Of a stretch of 64,000 nucleotides of DNA, positions 9,252 through 58,953 are shown one piece after another; the first letter of the stretch is position 1; every line of letters starts with the position of its first letter. The position numbers and the translations under genes were made by a program. The stretch is from a bacterium. GTDB taxonomy: Bacteria > CLD3 > SB21. A model generated the notes under the pieces. It saw only the letters and a program-made list of their open reading frames with translations, did no database searches and was not told the DNA's origin. The DNA is taken from positions 62,001 through 126,000 of the forward strand of contig JABWCP010000007.1 of the NCBI GenBank assembly GCA_013360215.1. The letters run 5' to 3'.

Positions 9252-9338
9252 CGGAGAGGGTGAGATTCGAACTCACGAAACCCTTGCGGGTTTACCGGTT
9301 TTCGAGACCGGCTCCTTCAACCACTCGGACACCTCTCC
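9252..9338 (-). tRNA. tRNA-Ser (anticodon CGA)
   Basis: Minus strand: GGAGAGG/CCTCTCC acceptor stem, CCGGT-CTCGAAA-ACCGG anticodon arm, long variable arm AAACCC-GCAA-GGGTTT, TTCGAAT T-loop, G discriminator followed by CCCA. Confidence 0.97.
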
Positions 9339-41660: not shown

Positions 41661-41772
41661 GCGCGCGGCGCCGTGGCGCACGTAGCCCACGCAAAGCGCC
41701 AAAGGCGCTGCGGAGGCCGACAGCCCGAAGCCAGCCCGACCCGACACGCCACAGGCGTGACGGGGCACGCCC
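41661..41772. repeat. GC-rich structured intergenic element, copy A
   Basis: Shares GCGCCAAAGGCGC, GCGGAGGCCGA, AGCCCGACCCG and GACGGGGCACGCC blocks with 58816-58929. Confidence 0.8.
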
Positions 41773-41861
41773 AAGTGATCGGTCGTCGTATCGGTGTGTT
41801 TTTAGTAGAAATTCTCGTGCTATCGTATTAGATTGCGCCGCATTTGTAAAACAGCGGTGTC

Positions 41862-54920: not shown

Positions 54921-56012
54921 ATGTTTAAAAAGTACGGCGTACTCACAGCGGCTTGTATTTTCGGTATAGGCACGTTCTCAGTTTATCTTTTCGGAGAATG
55001 GCATGAAATACAAGATGAAGGTCTGCGTTGGTTTTTAGAATTGCCGCACATGACCTTATCTTTTTTTCTGATCATCATGCTTCCTTTAGCGGTCCATCAG
55101 ATGGCTATTCTGATTGAGCGTAAGAATGAGACGCGGATGTTGTGGACACGATTTATGGTGGTCGTCGTGCTGCCGTATATCGTCGTGGCGACCTATCTGG
55201 CCGCCGAATGGGATGAGATCGAGGAGGAGTGGTTGCCGTGGTTGATCAAACCGTCTCATTTTCTGATTGTACTGATCAATGGGATTATGATTCCGGGCAT
55301 TCTGTGGCTGATCATCAATAAATTCATACAGCTTTGGGATGAACGCGAGCGTTTCTTAAAACGCATTGTCGAGTTAGAAAATGAGTTGCGTTCATTTGTA
55401 CATCCCGAGGTGTACAAGCGTATTTATGAAAAAACTTCGCTGGAAGCTACCGGCGCATTTAAAATTATCATGGCGGACATGCAGGGATTCACAAAGTTTT
55501 GTGAAGCTCATTCGGCTGCAGAGGTTGCCAATCTGGCTAATGAATTCTGTAACTTGATGGACGAACGTATTCGGCAAGTCGGAGGAATCACATTATCCTA
55601 TGCCGGTGATTTGGTGTTTGCGCTTTTTGATGAACACATTGCAAGTGACGATATCGTAGGGGTGGCTAAAAAAATGCAGGAAACGTTTCGCGCGTTTGCA
55701 CAAGCCAAATTTCCGGATTGGGATACGAACCTCAATATCGGCATTCATTATAGCCGGGATATCGTACTAGGAACAATAGGCGGCGGAAGTGCACAGAAAC
55801 ATTTTACGGCCAATGGATTTGGCATCTGCGAAGTGTCGCGTATGTGTTCAGAAGCCGATCATGGGCAGATTCTCGTTTCGGAAGCATTTGCAGAAACCGT
55901 CACGAGTGACCCAATACGATCACGTCTCATAGGAATTGCATGGAGTAAACAGCCCAAAAATATTACAGTGCCTCCGGTTATGTTTGAATACCGTTTAGTT
56001 GAAATGAAATAA
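54921..56012 (+). CDS. Membrane-bound class III nucleotide cyclase, atypical
   Basis: Four TM helices; MADMQGFT, YAGD..FALF, NIGIH, SRMCS, GQILVSE. Confidence 0.8.
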   Translation: MFKKYGVLTAACIFGIGTFSVYLFGEWHEIQDEGLRWFLELPHMTLSFFLIIMLPLAVHQMAILIERKNETRMLWTRFMVVVVLPYIVVATYLAAEWDEIEEEWLPWLIKPSHFLIVLINGIMIPGILWLIINKFIQLWDERERFLKRIVELENELRSFVHPEVYKRIYEKTSLEATGAFKIIMADMQGFTKFCEAHSAAEVANLANEFCNLMDERIRQVGGITLSYAGDLVFALFDEHIASDDIVGVAKKMQETFRAFAQAKFPDWDTNLNIGIHYSRDIVLGTIGGGSAQKHFTANGFGICEVSRMCSEADHGQILVSEAFAETVTSDPIRSRLIGIAWSKQPKNITVPPVMFEYRLVEMK

Positions 56013-56054
56013 CTTAAACGGTAAAGGTGGGACTTAAAATTTTTTAATACCTGA

Positions 56055-56561
56055 TTACGCCGATACCGGAGACTCCTGCATAATGCGCTCGATATCCTGG
56101 CACACGCGTGTGATGAGGTCGCCGATTTTTTCGCGAACATTGGGTGTGAGCTCTTCGCCAAATTCAAAATTGGCGCCCTCTATGCCGTAAATAATGACTT
56201 CCGGAACGGGATGGTGTAATGCTTTGGCCAATTCGATAGCCTCGGAAATACTATAGGCATGCGAAGAGTAATTGAAAAAATTACCGGGTATAATATCGGC
56301 ATTAGCCCGAAGCCTGTAGATGGTCCCCGGTATGTTATCCGAACACACTGTATCTATGATGATAACCCATCGTGCATCGGACCATACATCTTGCAGCGAC
56401 GAGCCGTCGCCGTTATGTTCGATGACGCACACATCCGGTAAACACATGTCCGCTATGGCGCGCGCCACTTCGATACCGGCGCGATCATCCCGCCGGTATT
56501 CATTGCCGATGCCGATCACGACGACCGATGCCGGCGTTGTGATAACATTATATTCTTTCAT
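56055..56561 (-). CDS. Hydrogenase maturation protease (HyaD/HybD/HoxW family)
   Basis: VIGIGNEYRRDD.AG, IIIDT, SSH, YGIEG. Confidence 0.9.
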   Translation of the reverse strand: MKEYNVITTPASVVVIGIGNEYRRDDRAGIEVARAIADMCLPDVCVIEHNGDGSSLQDVWSDARWVIIIDTVCSDNIPGTIYRLRANADIIPGNFFNYSSHAYSISEAIELAKALHHPVPEVIIYGIEGANFEFGEELTPNVREKIGDLITRVCQDIERIMQESPVSA

Positions 56562-56601
56562 AAGCCGTTCCTTTAATGGTGAATAAAACGAACGGTGCAT
56601 T

Positions 56602-57060
56602 TTATACGTGTTCGATCATGTCCAAAATCTGGAGCCGTGTGGATTCCAGGCGCTGGGTCACGATATGCGAAAACCGTTTGAGCAATTGGTATCCGAGTTC
56701 ATGATCGGATTCGCATTTGTTGCGCAGGCATCGTCCATCCAGTGCTATAGCTAATGTCAAATCCAAAGCCCGCGCATCAAATTGCCAATGGTACGGCGGG
56801 ATGAGCCATGACCATCCGAGGATATCGCCTTCGGTCAACGTATGTATGCCGATGTGACCGCGACCGGGCGATCCGATTTCTAATGCAATCTTGCCTTGGC
56901 GGATCAGATAAAATTCGTTAGCCTCCTGCCCTTCGCGAAAAATAATTTGTCCCGTATCAAACCGCACATTGGATGCACAACCGATGATCAATTCAACGTG
57001 CTCGGCTGACATATCAATCAGTAACGGGTGCTGCATCAGAAAAAACTTCAAATCTTTCAT
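56602..57060 (-). CDS. Stand-alone cyclic-nucleotide-binding domain protein
   Basis: IFREGQEANEFYLIRQG, GDILGWSWL. No HTH. Confidence 0.88.
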   Translation of the reverse strand: MKDLKFFLMQHPLLIDMSAEHVELIIGCASNVRFDTGQIIFREGQEANEFYLIRQGKIALEIGSPGRGHIGIHTLTEGDILGWSWLIPPYHWQFDARALDLTLAIALDGRCLRNKCESDHELGYQLLKRFSHIVTQRLESTRLQILDMIEHV

Positions 57061-57376
57061 AGTGGTTTTCCGTCTTAAAAATAAGCGCCGGCATAACAGA
57101 CACACCCGGACATCAAACGATACAGCCGTAAGCTGTATGTAAACGAATCGTACACGTACTCGGGTCCTGGATATCGGGGGAAGGCGGGAACGTTATGCCG
57201 GCAAAAGTTTTCATACACCGGACTCCTATAGTCCTGTAACTTAAGATAAGGCTAATGACTCGACTGCGCGACGACGTAGGTCATCACGATGTGTGATATG
57301 CGTCAGCGGTTTAAGTTAAATGGCCCTAAGTTGTTGAGATTTATAGAAGTTCAAAGTATGAGGGGGGAGGGGATGC

Positions 57377-57727
57377 TCAAGGCTGAATTTTTATACGTTC
57401 TTTTTTAGGGAGTTTTTTGACGACTTCGTCGTAGGAATGATCAATCATTAGAAAAATTTCTTTATCCGGCACGGATCCGTCCAAATACACGCTATTCCAC
57501 AATTTTTTATTCATGTGGTATCCCGGTTGAACGCCTTCGTAACGCTCGCGCCATTCGATGGCTTTTTCAGGATCGGCTTTGAGATTGATAAATTCGGCAA
57601 TATGGGTATTGATGAGAGCGAAAATTTTTCCACTGACCCGGAATACCAATGTTTCGTGATCAAACGGAAAATCCTCATCGGTTGATTTTTTCTTAAGACA
57701 ATATGTGCGGATCGTTTCGAGATTCAT
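57377..57727 (-). CDS. MmcQ/YjbR family protein
   Basis: FRVSGKIFA, NLKADP, PGYHMNKKLWNSV, IDHSY. Confidence 0.93.
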   Translation of the reverse strand: MNLETIRTYCLKKKSTDEDFPFDHETLVFRVSGKIFALINTHIAEFINLKADPEKAIEWRERYEGVQPGYHMNKKLWNSVYLDGSVPDKEIFLMIDHSYDEVVKKLPKKERIKIQP

Positions 57728-57762
57728 GATGCGTGAGTAATTTTAGTTTGAATTCACTTCGT

Positions 57763-57794
57763 AAAAAACAGAACCCCGCTTTTCAGCGGGGCTC
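57763..57794 (-). terminator. Intrinsic terminator of the candidate sRNA
   Basis: GAGCCCCGCT-GAAA-AGCGGGGTTC-TGTTTTTT. Confidence 0.85.
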
Positions 57795-57946
57795 AACGAT
57801 TTCCGGGAACCCCCGTAGCACGTCGCTAGCGGGCATCACCGGAGGTTCCCATTAAGTTATGCTTAATACGGATCACCTCCTATCCCCAGGGTTGAAACTT
57901 CTCGCCTGAAATCGCCCTGAACAATTTCACGCGAAGCGTTAATTAC
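57763..57946 (-). ncRNA. Candidate ~180-nt structured small RNA carrying AGGAGGTGATCC
   Basis: Bounded by a consensus promoter and an intrinsic terminator, several hairpins, no ATG ORF longer than 8 codons. Confidence 0.6.
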
Positions 57947-57952
57947 GTATTA

Positions 57953-57981
57953 AACTTACAAGCTATCCTTTCCATTGTCAA
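57953..57981 (-). promoter_or_regulatory. sigma70-type promoter of the candidate sRNA
   Basis: TTGACA (57981-57976), 17 nt, TAAGTT (57958-57953). Confidence 0.7.
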
Positions 57982-58051
57982 TACTCATTTTTGCAGATGA
58001 CGCTCCTGTTGAAGTATTGTTCTGAAAACATCAGTACATACGGCTTGCAAA

Positions 58052-58757
58052 AAAACAAGTTCTCGCTAAGACGCTAAGTTTTTAATTACAATCGAAACAT
58101 TTTTTATCTTTGCGGCTCTGCGAGAGGTTATTATTGATGGTAGCTTCAGTAGGTGCACGACACCTCGGTACGTCGCTTCGCTCCTACTCGGTGTCAGATA
58201 GCATGCGCCGAGTTGAGGGTTCTGTAAAGACAGAAAACATATTCTCGCTAAGACGCTAAGTTTTTAATTACAATCGAAACATTTTTTATCTTTGCGACTC
58301 TGCGAGAGAATTTTATTGATGCTATCTTCAGTAGGCGCACGACACTTCGGTACGTCGCTTCGCTCCTACTCGGTGTCAGATAGCATGCGTCTAGTTGAGG
58401 GTGCTATATATATAATAATATAGACAGAAAACATGTTCTCGCTAAGACGCTAAGCCTCGAAGTGCAATCGAAGCGTTTTTTATCTTTGCGACTCTGCGAG
58501 AGGTTATGATTGATGGTAGCTTCAGTAGGCGTACGGCACCTCGATACGTCGCTTCGCTCCTACTCGGTGTCAGATAGCATGCGCCGAGTTGAGGGTTCTG
58601 TAAAGACAGAAAACAAGTTCTCGCCAAGGTGCTAAGTTTTAAATTACGATCGAAACATTTTTTATCTTTGCGACTCCGCGAGAGGTTATTATTGATGGTA
58701 GCTTCAGTAGGCGCACGACACTTCGATACGTCGTTTTGTTCCTACTTGGTGTCAGAT
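58052..58757. repeat. Tandem array of four ~182-bp units, each with two palindromic modules
   Basis: TTCTCGC anchor at 58060, 58242, 58436 and 58618 (periods 182, 194, 182). Confidence 0.95.
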
Positions 58758-58815
58758 GGTTGTTGATGAAGAAATGATGGGAGAAGCGGTGTCCCGCGTG
58801 AGGGATGTGGAGGGT

Positions 58816-58929
58816 GAGCTCGCGTACAGGCGCGAGCGAAGACCCCGTAAACGCGCCAAAGGCGCGTGCGGAGGCCGATAGCCCGGAGCAAGCCCGACCC
58901 GTCACGCCGCGCGCGTGACGGGGCACGCC
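58816..58929. repeat. GC-rich structured intergenic element, copy B
   Basis: Homologous to 41661-41772, with compensated stems. Confidence 0.8.
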
Positions 58930-58953
58930 TAAAAAATGAATATCTATAATTTA

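What the first reader, a model, noticed from the sequence alone, without database searches (positions are those of the whole stretch)
57763..57981. Stand-alone ~180-nt structured RNA displaying a 12-nt complement of the 16S rRNA 3' end
Seen on the minus strand: a TTGACA-17-TAAGTT promoter and a strong terminator enclose ~180 nt with no credible ATG gene. The + strand at 57870-57881 reads GGATCACCTCCT, the conserved 16S 3' end, so the transcript carries AGGAGGUGAUCC. This can sit in a GGAU-loop-AUCC hairpin. It is followed by an AUUAAG/CUUAAU hairpin and a GGGAACCUCC/GGGGGUUCCC stem, and GCGAUUUC/GAAAUCGU can close the whole domain. The ACCUCC arm can alternatively pair with GGAGGU, giving a possible two-state switch. 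The only codon at initiation spacing is ATT, opening IKHNLMGTSGDAR* (57867-57826). Inference: a 30S-binding or decoy RNA, an IF3-sensitive mini-ORF, or a type I TA-like transcript.
Basis: partly seen in the sequence, partly recalled or inferred. Interest (0 to 1): 0.78.

Follow-up and report, generated by a model that had tools for sequence, protein, structure and literature searches.

The report
Orphan small RNA or leader before yjbR
A roughly 180-base, strongly folding, gene-free stretch between a good promoter and a strong terminator is probably a species-specific small RNA or leader in front of a yjbR gene, and its match to the ribosome-binding signal is buried in a hairpin and no longer than chance allows.

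Summary
On the minus strand there is TTGACA-17-TAAGTT, about 180 nt with no credible ORF, a 10-bp terminator with a T-run, and AGGAGGTGATCC. That 12-mer is the exact complement of this genome's own 16S 3' end.

Three points weaken the headline:
- A 12-nt match to the 16S tail is what chance gives per genome. The expected count is 0.21 for this 12-mer. Over all nine 12-nt windows of the tail, 2.85 are expected and 3 observed.
- The motif is not displayed. It forms one arm of a 40-nt hairpin against an internal ACCUCC, and P(GGAGGU unpaired) is about 2e-4.

The unit itself looks real. Its folding z-score is -3.4 to -4.4, beyond all 120 random genomic windows tested. The promoter fits the genome's tRNA promoters. 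One metatranscriptome contig covers only this RNA. Strain variants show no listed change inside it.

It has no Rfam match and no homologue in 19 other genomes of its phylum or in 160 yjbR loci.

Best reading: a lineage-specific terminated small RNA or attenuating leader of yjbR. The 30S-decoy, mini-ORF and type I TA readings are unsupported. Interest is low to moderate.

The parts
57976..57981 (-). -35 hexamer TTGACA
   Evidence: Read. It is identical to the -35 seen upstream of several tRNA genes of this genome.
57953..57958 (-). -10 hexamer TAAGTT, 17 nt after the -35
   Evidence: Read. It matches the local tRNA-promoter -10 TATATT at 4 of 6 positions. The generic scan did not list it.
57765..57946 (-). 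Predicted transcript of about 182 nt. The start is inferred as about 7 nt after the -10 and the end lies in the T-run.
   Evidence: Inference from the promoter and terminator. MFE is -78.4 kcal/mol. One RNA-library contig covers 57790-57930 only. The ends are not mapped.
57896..57940 (-). 5' hairpin H1. GUGAAAUUGU pairs with GGCGAUUUCA, extended by CUUCGC/GCGAG.
   Evidence: MFE and centroid structures. On its own it has z -4.2.
57803..57889 (-). Three-way junction. Closing helix P2 is CUGGGGAU (57889-57882) paired with GUUCCCGG (57810-57803). It encloses hairpins P3 and P4.
   Evidence: MFE structure. z is -2.9.
57841..57880 (-). Hairpin P3. It is built from GGAGGU/ACCUCC, UCC/GGA and UAUUAAG/CUUAAUG, with loop CAUAA. 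It holds the SD-like segment and an internal anti-SD-like ACCUCC.
   Evidence: Pair probabilities are near 1 for most of the stem.
57870..57881 (-). AGGAGGTGATCC, the exact complement of the last conserved 12 nt of the genome's own 16S rRNA
   Evidence: The duplex with the 16S tail is -22.2 kcal/mol, against -9.2 for AGGAGG. It is predicted to be paired.
57812..57833 (-). Hairpin P4 (CCCG.CUAGC / GCUACGGG, loop GACGU)
   Evidence: MFE structure.
57826..57867 (-). ATT-initiated 13-codon frame IKHNLMGTSGDAR*. It is not regarded as a gene.
   Evidence: The ATT lies 13 nt after the first G of GGAG. The genome's preferred spacing is 9-12 nt. There is no canonical start at that spacing.
57763..57794 (-). 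Intrinsic terminator: GAGCCCCGCU-GAAA-AGCGGGGUUC followed by UGUUUUUU
   Evidence: 10 pairs, 7 G-C, loop of 4.
57377..57727 (-). yjbR gene (116 aa, PF04237). It starts 35 nt after the T-run and has no SD and no convincing promoter of its own.
   Evidence: E 2.6e-30. The intergenic bases were read.
58052..58757 (.). Context: a 182-bp tandem repeat in 3.8 copies, immediately upstream of the promoter
   Evidence: One further single copy lies at C40:141433-141591, outside the window.

Best explanation
This is a lineage-specific, non-coding transcription unit. A sigma-70-type promoter drives an RNA of about 180 nt that folds into a 5' hairpin plus a three-way junction. The RNA ends at a strong intrinsic terminator 35 nt before yjbR.

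The main product is the terminated small RNA. yjbR has no SD and no convincing promoter of its own, so whatever reads through the terminator probably supplies yjbR mRNA. The element therefore also acts as an attenuating leader.

The AGGAGGUGAUCC segment is simply the 5' arm of the longest hairpin, paired with an internal ACCUCC. It is a structural strand and not a displayed ribosome-binding site.

Shown: the sequence features, the predicted fold and its statistical excess, and the absence of an ORF or a known family.

Inferred: the transcript ends, read-through into yjbR, and any regulatory role.
For: - Promoter: a perfect TTGACA, 17 nt, then TAAGTT. This resembles the tRNA promoters of the genome, TTGACA-17-TATATT.
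- Terminator: 10 pairs plus a T-run.
- Fold: z -4.43 for 188 nt, with 0 of 200 shuffles as good. The body alone has z -3.4, beyond all 120 random genomic windows.
- No ORF of 30 aa or more, and only peptides of 17 aa or fewer.
- RNA-library run X20: its only contig on the 751-nt stretch is 57790-57930. This lies inside the predicted RNA and is flanked by adapter-like ends.
- Strain variants in runs X11, X14 and X15: 7 listed substitutions in yjbR or its 3' flank, 6 at 57968-58016, 1 insertion at 57762, and none listed at 57763-57960.
- The 35 nt between the T-run and the yjbR ATG hold only a TAAAAT with a poor -35 (read).
- The 3' strand of P2 (GGGGUUC) repeats the terminator's 3' arm. It can pair with the terminator's 5' arm, so an antiterminator is possible.
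Against: - No homologue exists to test conservation or covariation. BLAST found 0 of 40 relatives. The covariance model gave nothing below E=0.1 in the 19 other genomes of the phylum, and the one hit at E=0.84 is noise.
- yjbR was found in 14 of 14 other family genomes. In the upstream stretches I read in 16 of the 17 non-own loci, no such leader appears; the L012 extraction failed. A conserved cis-regulator is therefore unlikely.
- The transcription evidence is weak. All runs were contigs without strand information. X15, a small-RNA library, also covers yjbR and the DNA upstream of the promoter at equal depth, which suggests DNA carry-over or pervasive transcription.
- The X15 contig over 57750-57902 carries one unlisted difference that may lie inside the RNA. 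The absence of variation is nominally P about 0.02-0.1 by my own arithmetic.
- The antiterminator state is 10.9 kcal/mol above the MFE.
Confidence: 0.55

Rival explanations
1. Non-functional or very young sequence. The 1.2-kb intergenic region between the CBS-pair gene and yjbR is a repeat-rich, rearranged patch. The promoter-like and terminator-like strings, the stable fold and the 12-mer are by-products of that history, and the RNA, if made, has no selected function.
For: - The segment is unique to this genome among 41 and 20 genomes searched.
- Synteny is not kept. yjbR and the CBS gene have other neighbours in relatives.
- Immediately upstream lie a 182-bp tandem array and a GC-rich palindromic element with a second copy elsewhere.
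- The 12-mer is within chance.
Against: - Three features coincide: a perfect -35 at correct spacing, a folding z of -3.4 that exceeds 120 of 120 random windows, and a textbook terminator.
- No listed strain variation lies inside the unit, while both flanks vary.
- An RNA-library contig is confined to it.
Confidence: 0.3
2. One reading: a 30S-binding or decoy RNA, or an IF3-sensitive ATT mini-ORF. The 12-nt SD-like segment pairs with the anti-SD of free 30S subunits. Either the RNA titrates 30S, or 30S binding or translation of the 13-codon frame remodels the RNA.
For: - The complement to the organism's own 16S tail is exact.
- The organism does use SD sequences, with a GGAG peak 9-12 nt before starts.
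- The computed 12-bp duplex is -22.2 kcal/mol, and forcing the 12-mer open costs 10.2 kcal/mol, so binding would be net favourable.
- ATT sits 13 nt after the first G of GGAG.
Against: - The segment is paired in the MFE, centroid and MEA structures. P(GGAGGU unpaired) is about 2e-4.
- Display states are 6-12.5 kcal/mol above the MFE.
- A 12-nt match is expected 0.21 times per genome. The whole class of such matches is at chance level, 3 observed against 2.85 expected.
- Other 10-12-nt matches in the genome mostly lie in places with no plausible start.
- There is a single site per RNA and a single gene copy, which makes a poor sponge for thousands of ribosomes.
- There is no canonical start codon, and the frame is buried in P3 and P4.
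- No conservation can be shown.
Confidence: 0.07
3. A ligand- or protein-responsive riboswitch-like attenuator of yjbR. The three-way junction is an aptamer. Its closing helix P2 sequesters GGGGUUC. When P2 opens, that strand pairs with the terminator's 5' arm and lets polymerase read into yjbR.
For: - The layout is promoter, three-way junction, terminator, gene, all on one strand.
- The P2 3' strand repeats the terminator's 3' arm, and a 7-bp antiterminator can be drawn.
Against: - No Rfam riboswitch reaches even E=0.5.
- The element is absent upstream of the yjbR homologues I read in 16 of 17 non-own family loci. It is also absent from 160 more distant yjbR loci.
- The antiterminator fold is 10.9 kcal/mol less stable.
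- Riboswitch classes are normally widespread, which is general knowledge and was not tested here.
Confidence: 0.06
4. A type I toxin-antitoxin-like transcript encoding a small toxic peptide.
For: Only the size of the transcript and its stand-alone promoter and terminator.
Against: - The open frames are 13, 16 and 17 codons. They are polar and not membrane-like: IKHNLMGTSGDAR, VKLFRAISGEKFQPWG and MPASDVLRGFPEIVEPR.
- No overlapping antisense promoter or terminator was found by the scan.
- There are no paralogues in the genome.
Confidence: 0.01

Closest known systems
Terminator-ended orphan small RNAs, and prematurely terminated leader transcripts that double as small RNAs (general class; the examples are recalled and come from no call)
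   Same: A sigma-70-type promoter, a 150-200-nt ORF-free structured RNA, and a Rho-independent terminator. The unit lies directly 5' of a gene on the same strand.
   Different: There is no family in Rfam 15, no homologue in any genome searched, and no known target or effector.
SD-sequestering hairpins of RNA thermometers and translational riboswitch expression platforms (ROSE, fourU; recalled)
   Same: A GGAGG segment is paired with an internal CCUCC anti-SD mimic in an imperfect hairpin.
   Different: No real gene starts at functional spacing. The next AUG is 23 nt after GGAGG, lies inside the stem and opens 8 codons. yjbR starts 140 nt further on, beyond a terminator.
Molecular-mimic sponge RNAs: CsrB/RsmZ for CsrA and 6S RNA for RNA polymerase
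   Same: They share with the decoy reading only the concept of an RNA that imitates a binding site of the expression machinery.
   Different: No CsrA gene is in the genome. There is one GGA-rich site and not many, and it is paired. There is no match to the 6S models RF00013 or RF01685. The fold is a hairpin plus three-way junction and not a rod with a central bubble.
Leader-peptide attenuators (trpL, ermCL type; recalled)
   Same: A strong SD, a very short frame and a downstream terminator lie before a gene.
   Different: There is no ATG, GTG or TTG at initiation spacing, only ATT. The frame shows no regulatory codon pattern. The SD and the frame are both buried in stable helices.

Membership tests
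Any Rfam 15 family (4227 models, including 6S, Chlorobi-1 and riboswitches) | Covariance-model score at or above the family's gathering score | tested here: not met
   In the whole window, only a tRNA at 9252-9338 passes. For 57650-58100 at E up to 10, the best hit is isrJ at 18 bits against a cut-off of 37. That hit is driven by the terminator hairpin.
6S RNA | Match to RF00013 or RF01685 | tested here: not met
   Neither model has a hit at E up to 1 anywhere in the genome. RF00013 rings in only 5 of 14 control genomes, so its sensitivity is limited.
6S RNA | Rod-like fold with paired 5' and 3' ends and a large central bubble | tested here: not met
   The predicted fold is a 5' hairpin, a three-way junction and a terminator hairpin. 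The two ends are not paired with each other.
CsrB/Rsm-type protein sponge | A CsrA/RsmA partner encoded in the genome | tested here: not met
   PF02599 has no match in the own genome, which is 100% complete. The model rings in 3 control genomes.
CsrB/Rsm-type protein sponge | Many GGA motifs exposed in hairpin loops | tested here: not met
   The loops are UCA, CAUAA, GACGU and GAAA. The GGA-containing segments are in stems.
Type I toxin-antitoxin | A small hydrophobic toxin ORF of about 20-60 aa | tested here: not met
   The longest frames are 13-17 codons and polar.
Transcription-attenuating riboswitch or leader | Lies 5' of the regulated gene on the same strand and ends in an intrinsic terminator | tested here: met
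   The terminator is at 57794-57763 and the yjbR ATG at 57727.
Transcription-attenuating riboswitch or leader | A mutually exclusive antiterminator of comparable stability | tested here: inconclusive
   A 7-bp GGGGUUC:GAGCCCC pairing exists. The best fold containing it is -67.5 kcal/mol, against -78.4 for the MFE.
Transcription-attenuating riboswitch or leader | An aptamer conserved, with covariation, upstream of homologous genes in other taxa | tested here: not met
   No hit in the 19 other genomes of the phylum. No hit upstream of yjbR in family genomes. No hit in 160 yjbR loci.
Trans-acting small RNA gene | Its own promoter and its own Rho-independent terminator | tested here: met
   These are sequence-level matches only.
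Trans-acting small RNA gene | A discrete transcript with defined ends | tested here: inconclusive
   One RNA-library contig covers 57790-57930 only (X20). Another library (X15) also covers the flanks. Only contigs were available, with no strand or end information.
Trans-acting small RNA gene | Identified base-pairing targets or a chaperone | not tested
   No target prediction was attempted. The short matches found are at chance level.
Ribosome (30S) decoy, a hypothetical class | An accessible SD-like segment | tested here: not met
   Unpaired probability is 0.1 or less at 9 of 12 bases. P(GGAGGU open) is about 2e-4.
Ribosome (30S) decoy, a hypothetical class | Physical binding to 30S subunits | not testable with these tools
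   This needs toeprinting or filter binding.

The most novel reading that the evidence does not exclude
The RNA is a ribosome-sensing attenuator. Free 30S subunits invade hairpin P3 through the 12-nt perfect SD. The duplex is -22 kcal/mol and opening costs about 10 kcal/mol. Invasion collapses the three-way junction and frees the P2 strand GGGGUUC. That strand then pairs with the terminator's 5' arm, so transcription reads into yjbR and the downstream cNMP-binding and HycI-like genes. Gene expression would thus be tied to the pool of idle 30S subunits. Alternatively, the terminated RNA titrates the anti-SD.
Probability: 0.05. Interest if true: 0.8.

Novelty: new member of a known kind. Interest (0 to 1): 0.25.

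Why it matters
If real, it adds one more orphan small RNA or leader from an uncultured activated-sludge bacterium. That bacterium belongs to a small phylum with 20 species representatives in the collection searched. This is useful for annotation but not surprising.

It would matter much more if the SD-like arm really engaged 30S subunits. An RNA that senses or titrates idle ribosomes through the anti-SD has, to my knowledge, not been described. One literature search showed none among the 15 papers listed, of 251 matching.

The present evidence speaks against that reading. The motif is buried in a helix, and its length is within chance.

Tried and rejected
Searches for relatives and known families:
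- Rfam at gathering and at E up to 10 gave nothing.
- BLAST of the 223-nt unit against 40 relatives gave no match. In the own genome only the unit itself matched.
- Short-word BLAST in the own genome gave only chance 13-16-mers. A 16-mer at C52:200048-200063 looked like a true RBS, but it is followed by an unconvincing 71-codon frame and was dropped as coincidence.
- A single-sequence covariance model R1 found only itself in 20 of 20 genomes of the class, which equals the phylum.
- With filters off, R1 found nothing better than E=1.1 in six syntenic loci.
- The yjbR-based scans of metagenome contigs and genome contigs returned only homologues of 65% identity or less, mostly Bacteroidota and Ignavibacteria. 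R1 found nothing in those 160 loci.
- Phage and plasmid collections and viral contigs gave no match.
- The synteny route through the CBS-pair gene showed that the neighbourhood is not conserved.
- No flanking direct repeats suggest an insertion.
- The RNA shows no similarity to the adjacent 182-bp repeat. This was judged by eye, and no self-hit appeared.

Rejected identities:
- 6S RNA and a CsrA sponge.

Read laying:
- X15 covers the RNA, yjbR and the DNA upstream of the promoter at similar depth, so it says nothing about transcript ends.
- Parts without cover in X15 and X20 are not evidence.

Other:
- One literature search was made, and only titles and abstract beginnings were seen. No paper on an SD-mimic decoy small RNA was among the 15 listed. 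PMC7797042, on anti-SD sequestration in Bacteroidetes ribosomes, was seen in the listing only.

Full report
**What is there**

The window is contig C40:62001-126000 of a 3.72-Mb, 44.8% G+C genome. On the minus strand the features run in this order:
- TTGACA at 57981-57976, a 17-nt spacer, and TAAGTT at 57958-57953.
- About 180 nt with no open reading frame.
- A hairpin at 57794-57771, with 10 pairs of which 7 are G-C, followed by TGTTTTTT.
- 35 nt further on, the ATG of a 116-aa gene at 57727-57377. This gene is a YjbR-family protein (PF04237, E 2.6e-30).

No ORF of 30 aa or more lies on the minus strand between promoter and terminator. Three-frame translation gives only peptides of 13-17 residues.

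GGATCACCTCCT occurs once in the window, at 57870-57881 on the + strand. It is identical to the 3' end of the genome's single detected 16S gene...GGCTGGATCACCTCCTTTCT, at C11:79158-80654.

**Is it more than chance?**

The 12-mer is not.
- An order-3 Markov model of the genome expects 0.21 copies of AGGAGGTGATCC, and one is present outside the rRNA gene.
- Over all nine 12-nt windows of the 20-nt tail complement, 2.85 copies are expected and 3 are found outside the rRNA gene.
- The other 10-12-nt matches are scattered, mostly without a plausible start codon behind them.

The organism does use SD sequences. GGAG peaks 9-12 nt before the first ATG of 2298 long ORFs. Matches of 8 nt or more are rare, 6 of 2298.

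The structure is beyond chance.
- The 188-nt unit folds at -78.4 kcal/mol with z -4.43, and 0 of 200 shuffles fold as well.
- The 152-nt body without the terminator has z -3.4. The minimum among 120 random 152-nt windows of the same genome is -3.19.

The promoter was not listed by the generic scan, because TAAGTT matches TATAAT at only 3 of 6 positions. The tRNA genes of this genome carry TTGACA/TTGCA, about 17 nt, then TATATT. TAAGTT matches that at 4 of 6 positions, including T1, A2 and T6.

**Anatomy of the fold**

The MFE, centroid and MEA structures agree on four elements:
- A 5' hairpin at 57940-57896.
- A three-way junction at 57889-57803, closed by CUGGGGAU/GUUCCCGG (P2).
- A 40-nt hairpin P3 at 57880-57841 and a 22-nt hairpin P4 at 57833-57812, both inside the junction.
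- The terminator.

The SD-like segment is the 5' arm of P3. GGAGGU pairs with ACCUCC and UCC pairs with GGA, leaving only a GA bulge free.
- Unpaired probability is 0.1 or less at 9 of 12 bases.
- The ensemble probability that GGAGGU is entirely open is about 2e-4.

The alternative states are all less stable than the MFE of -78.4 kcal/mol:

| State | Energy (kcal/mol) |
|---|---|
| GGAU-loop-AUCC display state | -72.2 |
| GGGAACCUCC/GGGGGUUCCC stem | -72.1 |
| GCGAUUUC/GAAAUCGU closure | -70.1 |

The RNA therefore does not display the motif. It contains an intramolecular SD:anti-SD-like helix.

Forcing the 12-mer open costs 10.2 kcal/mol. A 12-bp duplex with the 16S tail is computed at -22.2 kcal/mol, against -9.2 for AGGAGG. 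Invasion by a 30S subunit is therefore not excluded on energy grounds.

**Relatives**

None were found.
- Rfam 15: no family passes at gathering threshold. The best sub-threshold hits (E of 0.68 or more) are terminator look-alikes.
- BLAST of the unit: 0 of 40 related genomes, and no second copy in the own genome.
- Covariance model built from the single sequence and its MFE structure: only itself among the 20 genomes that make up its class and phylum in the collection. One hit at E=0.84 is noise.
- yjbR orthologues: present in 14 of 14 other genomes of the family. In the closest genus they directly follow another gene. I read the 450 nt upstream in 16 of the 17 non-own loci (the L012 extraction failed) and saw nothing similar.
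- The neighbourhood of the upstream CBS-pair gene is not conserved either.
- The two large scans with the YjbR protein returned only distant homologues of 65% identity or less. The model found nothing in those 160 loci.
- Phage, plasmid and viral collections: no match.

Covariation, the decisive test for a structured RNA, therefore cannot be made with the data at hand.

**Expression and strain variation**

The stretch is held by activated-sludge and sludge runs. Only assembled contigs were available, so strand and ends are unknown.
- In the RNA-library run X20, the only contig on the 751 nt laid is 57790-57930. It lies inside the predicted RNA. Its loose ends look like Illumina adapter junctions, an identification I make from recall. 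This is a weak hint of a short RNA fragment.
- X15, a small-RNA metatranscriptome of a variant strain, covers 57481-57703, 57750-57902 and 57938-58050 at similar depth. That includes DNA upstream of the promoter, so it does not delimit a transcript.
- Across X11, X14 and X15 the listed differences are 7 substitutions at 57363-57674, 6 at 57968-58016, one insertion at 57762, and none at 57763-57960.
- One unlisted difference in the X15 contig over 57750-57902 may lie inside the RNA.
- If 13 sites fell uniformly over 751 nt, an empty 198-nt segment has P about 0.02. Allowing one site gives P about 0.1. Both figures are my arithmetic.
- This is suggestive of constraint but not strong.

**Interpretation**

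The unit most likely is a real, lineage-specific non-coding transcript of about 180 nt that ends at the terminator.

It lies on the same strand as yjbR and 35 nt before it. yjbR has no SD and only a TAAAAT with a poor -35 (read). Read-through probably supplies yjbR mRNA, which would make the element an attenuating leader as well.

The 3' strand of P2 (GGGGUUC) repeats the terminator's 3' arm and can pair with the terminator's 5' arm, so an antiterminator can be drawn. It is 10.9 kcal/mol less stable than the MFE.

A conserved riboswitch is unlikely, given its absence before every other yjbR gene that I could read.

Other identities were tested and rejected:
- A CsrA sponge is excluded because the genome has no csrA.
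- 6S RNA finds no support (and the fold).
- A type I toxin is excluded by the lack of a hydrophobic ORF.
- The ATT mini-ORF lies wholly within P3 and P4 and has no canonical start.

The main rival is that this is a young, functionless by-product of a repeat-rich, rearranged intergenic region.

**Verdict**

The stand-alone structured RNA is plausible. The 30S-decoy, mini-ORF and toxin-antitoxin readings are unsupported.

It is a new, orphan member of a known kind, either a terminator-ended small RNA or a leader. Interest is low to moderate, pending transcript mapping and sister-species sequences.

Noticed in passing
window 58052-58757: A 182-bp tandem repeat in 3.8 copies, 84% matches, lies immediately upstream of the RNA's promoter. 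Each unit contains long internal inverted repeats. One further single unit lies at C40:141433-141591, outside the window in another intergenic region, and a weak partial match lies on C19. It has no Rfam match. Its function is unknown.
   Followed up: partly
window 58770-58945, with a second copy at about window 41681-41774: A GC-rich palindromic element sits between the CBS-pair gene and the tandem array. A second copy with 85% identity over 96 nt lies elsewhere on the contig. On the + strand at 58857-58935 it gives a sub-threshold match to the twister-sister ribozyme model RF02681: 21.2 bits against a gathering score of 34, E 0.016-0.08 on short stretches, with one helix of the model missing. 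The second copy gives no such match, so this is probably chance.
   Followed up: partly
window 54921-57105: Downstream of yjbR on the same strand lie a cNMP-binding-domain protein (56602-57105) and a HycI-type hydrogenase maturation protease (56055-56600). An adenylate/guanylate-cyclase-domain membrane protein is on the opposite strand (54921-56012). This may be a small cyclic-nucleotide signalling neighbourhood.
   Followed up: no
G012, G013, G014, G008 and G011 loci L188-L198: In one related genus the 312-aa CBS-pair protein matches as two adjacent pieces, query residues 1-134 and 130-311. In G002, G010 and G006 the match contains one in-frame TGA. The gene may be split there, or there may be a frameshift or recoding event.
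   Followed up: no
genome C9:62493: GGAGGTGATCCGT occurs a second time in the genome, sharing 13 nt with the RNA. It is followed by a 40-codon TTG frame. This looks like chance.
   Followed up: no
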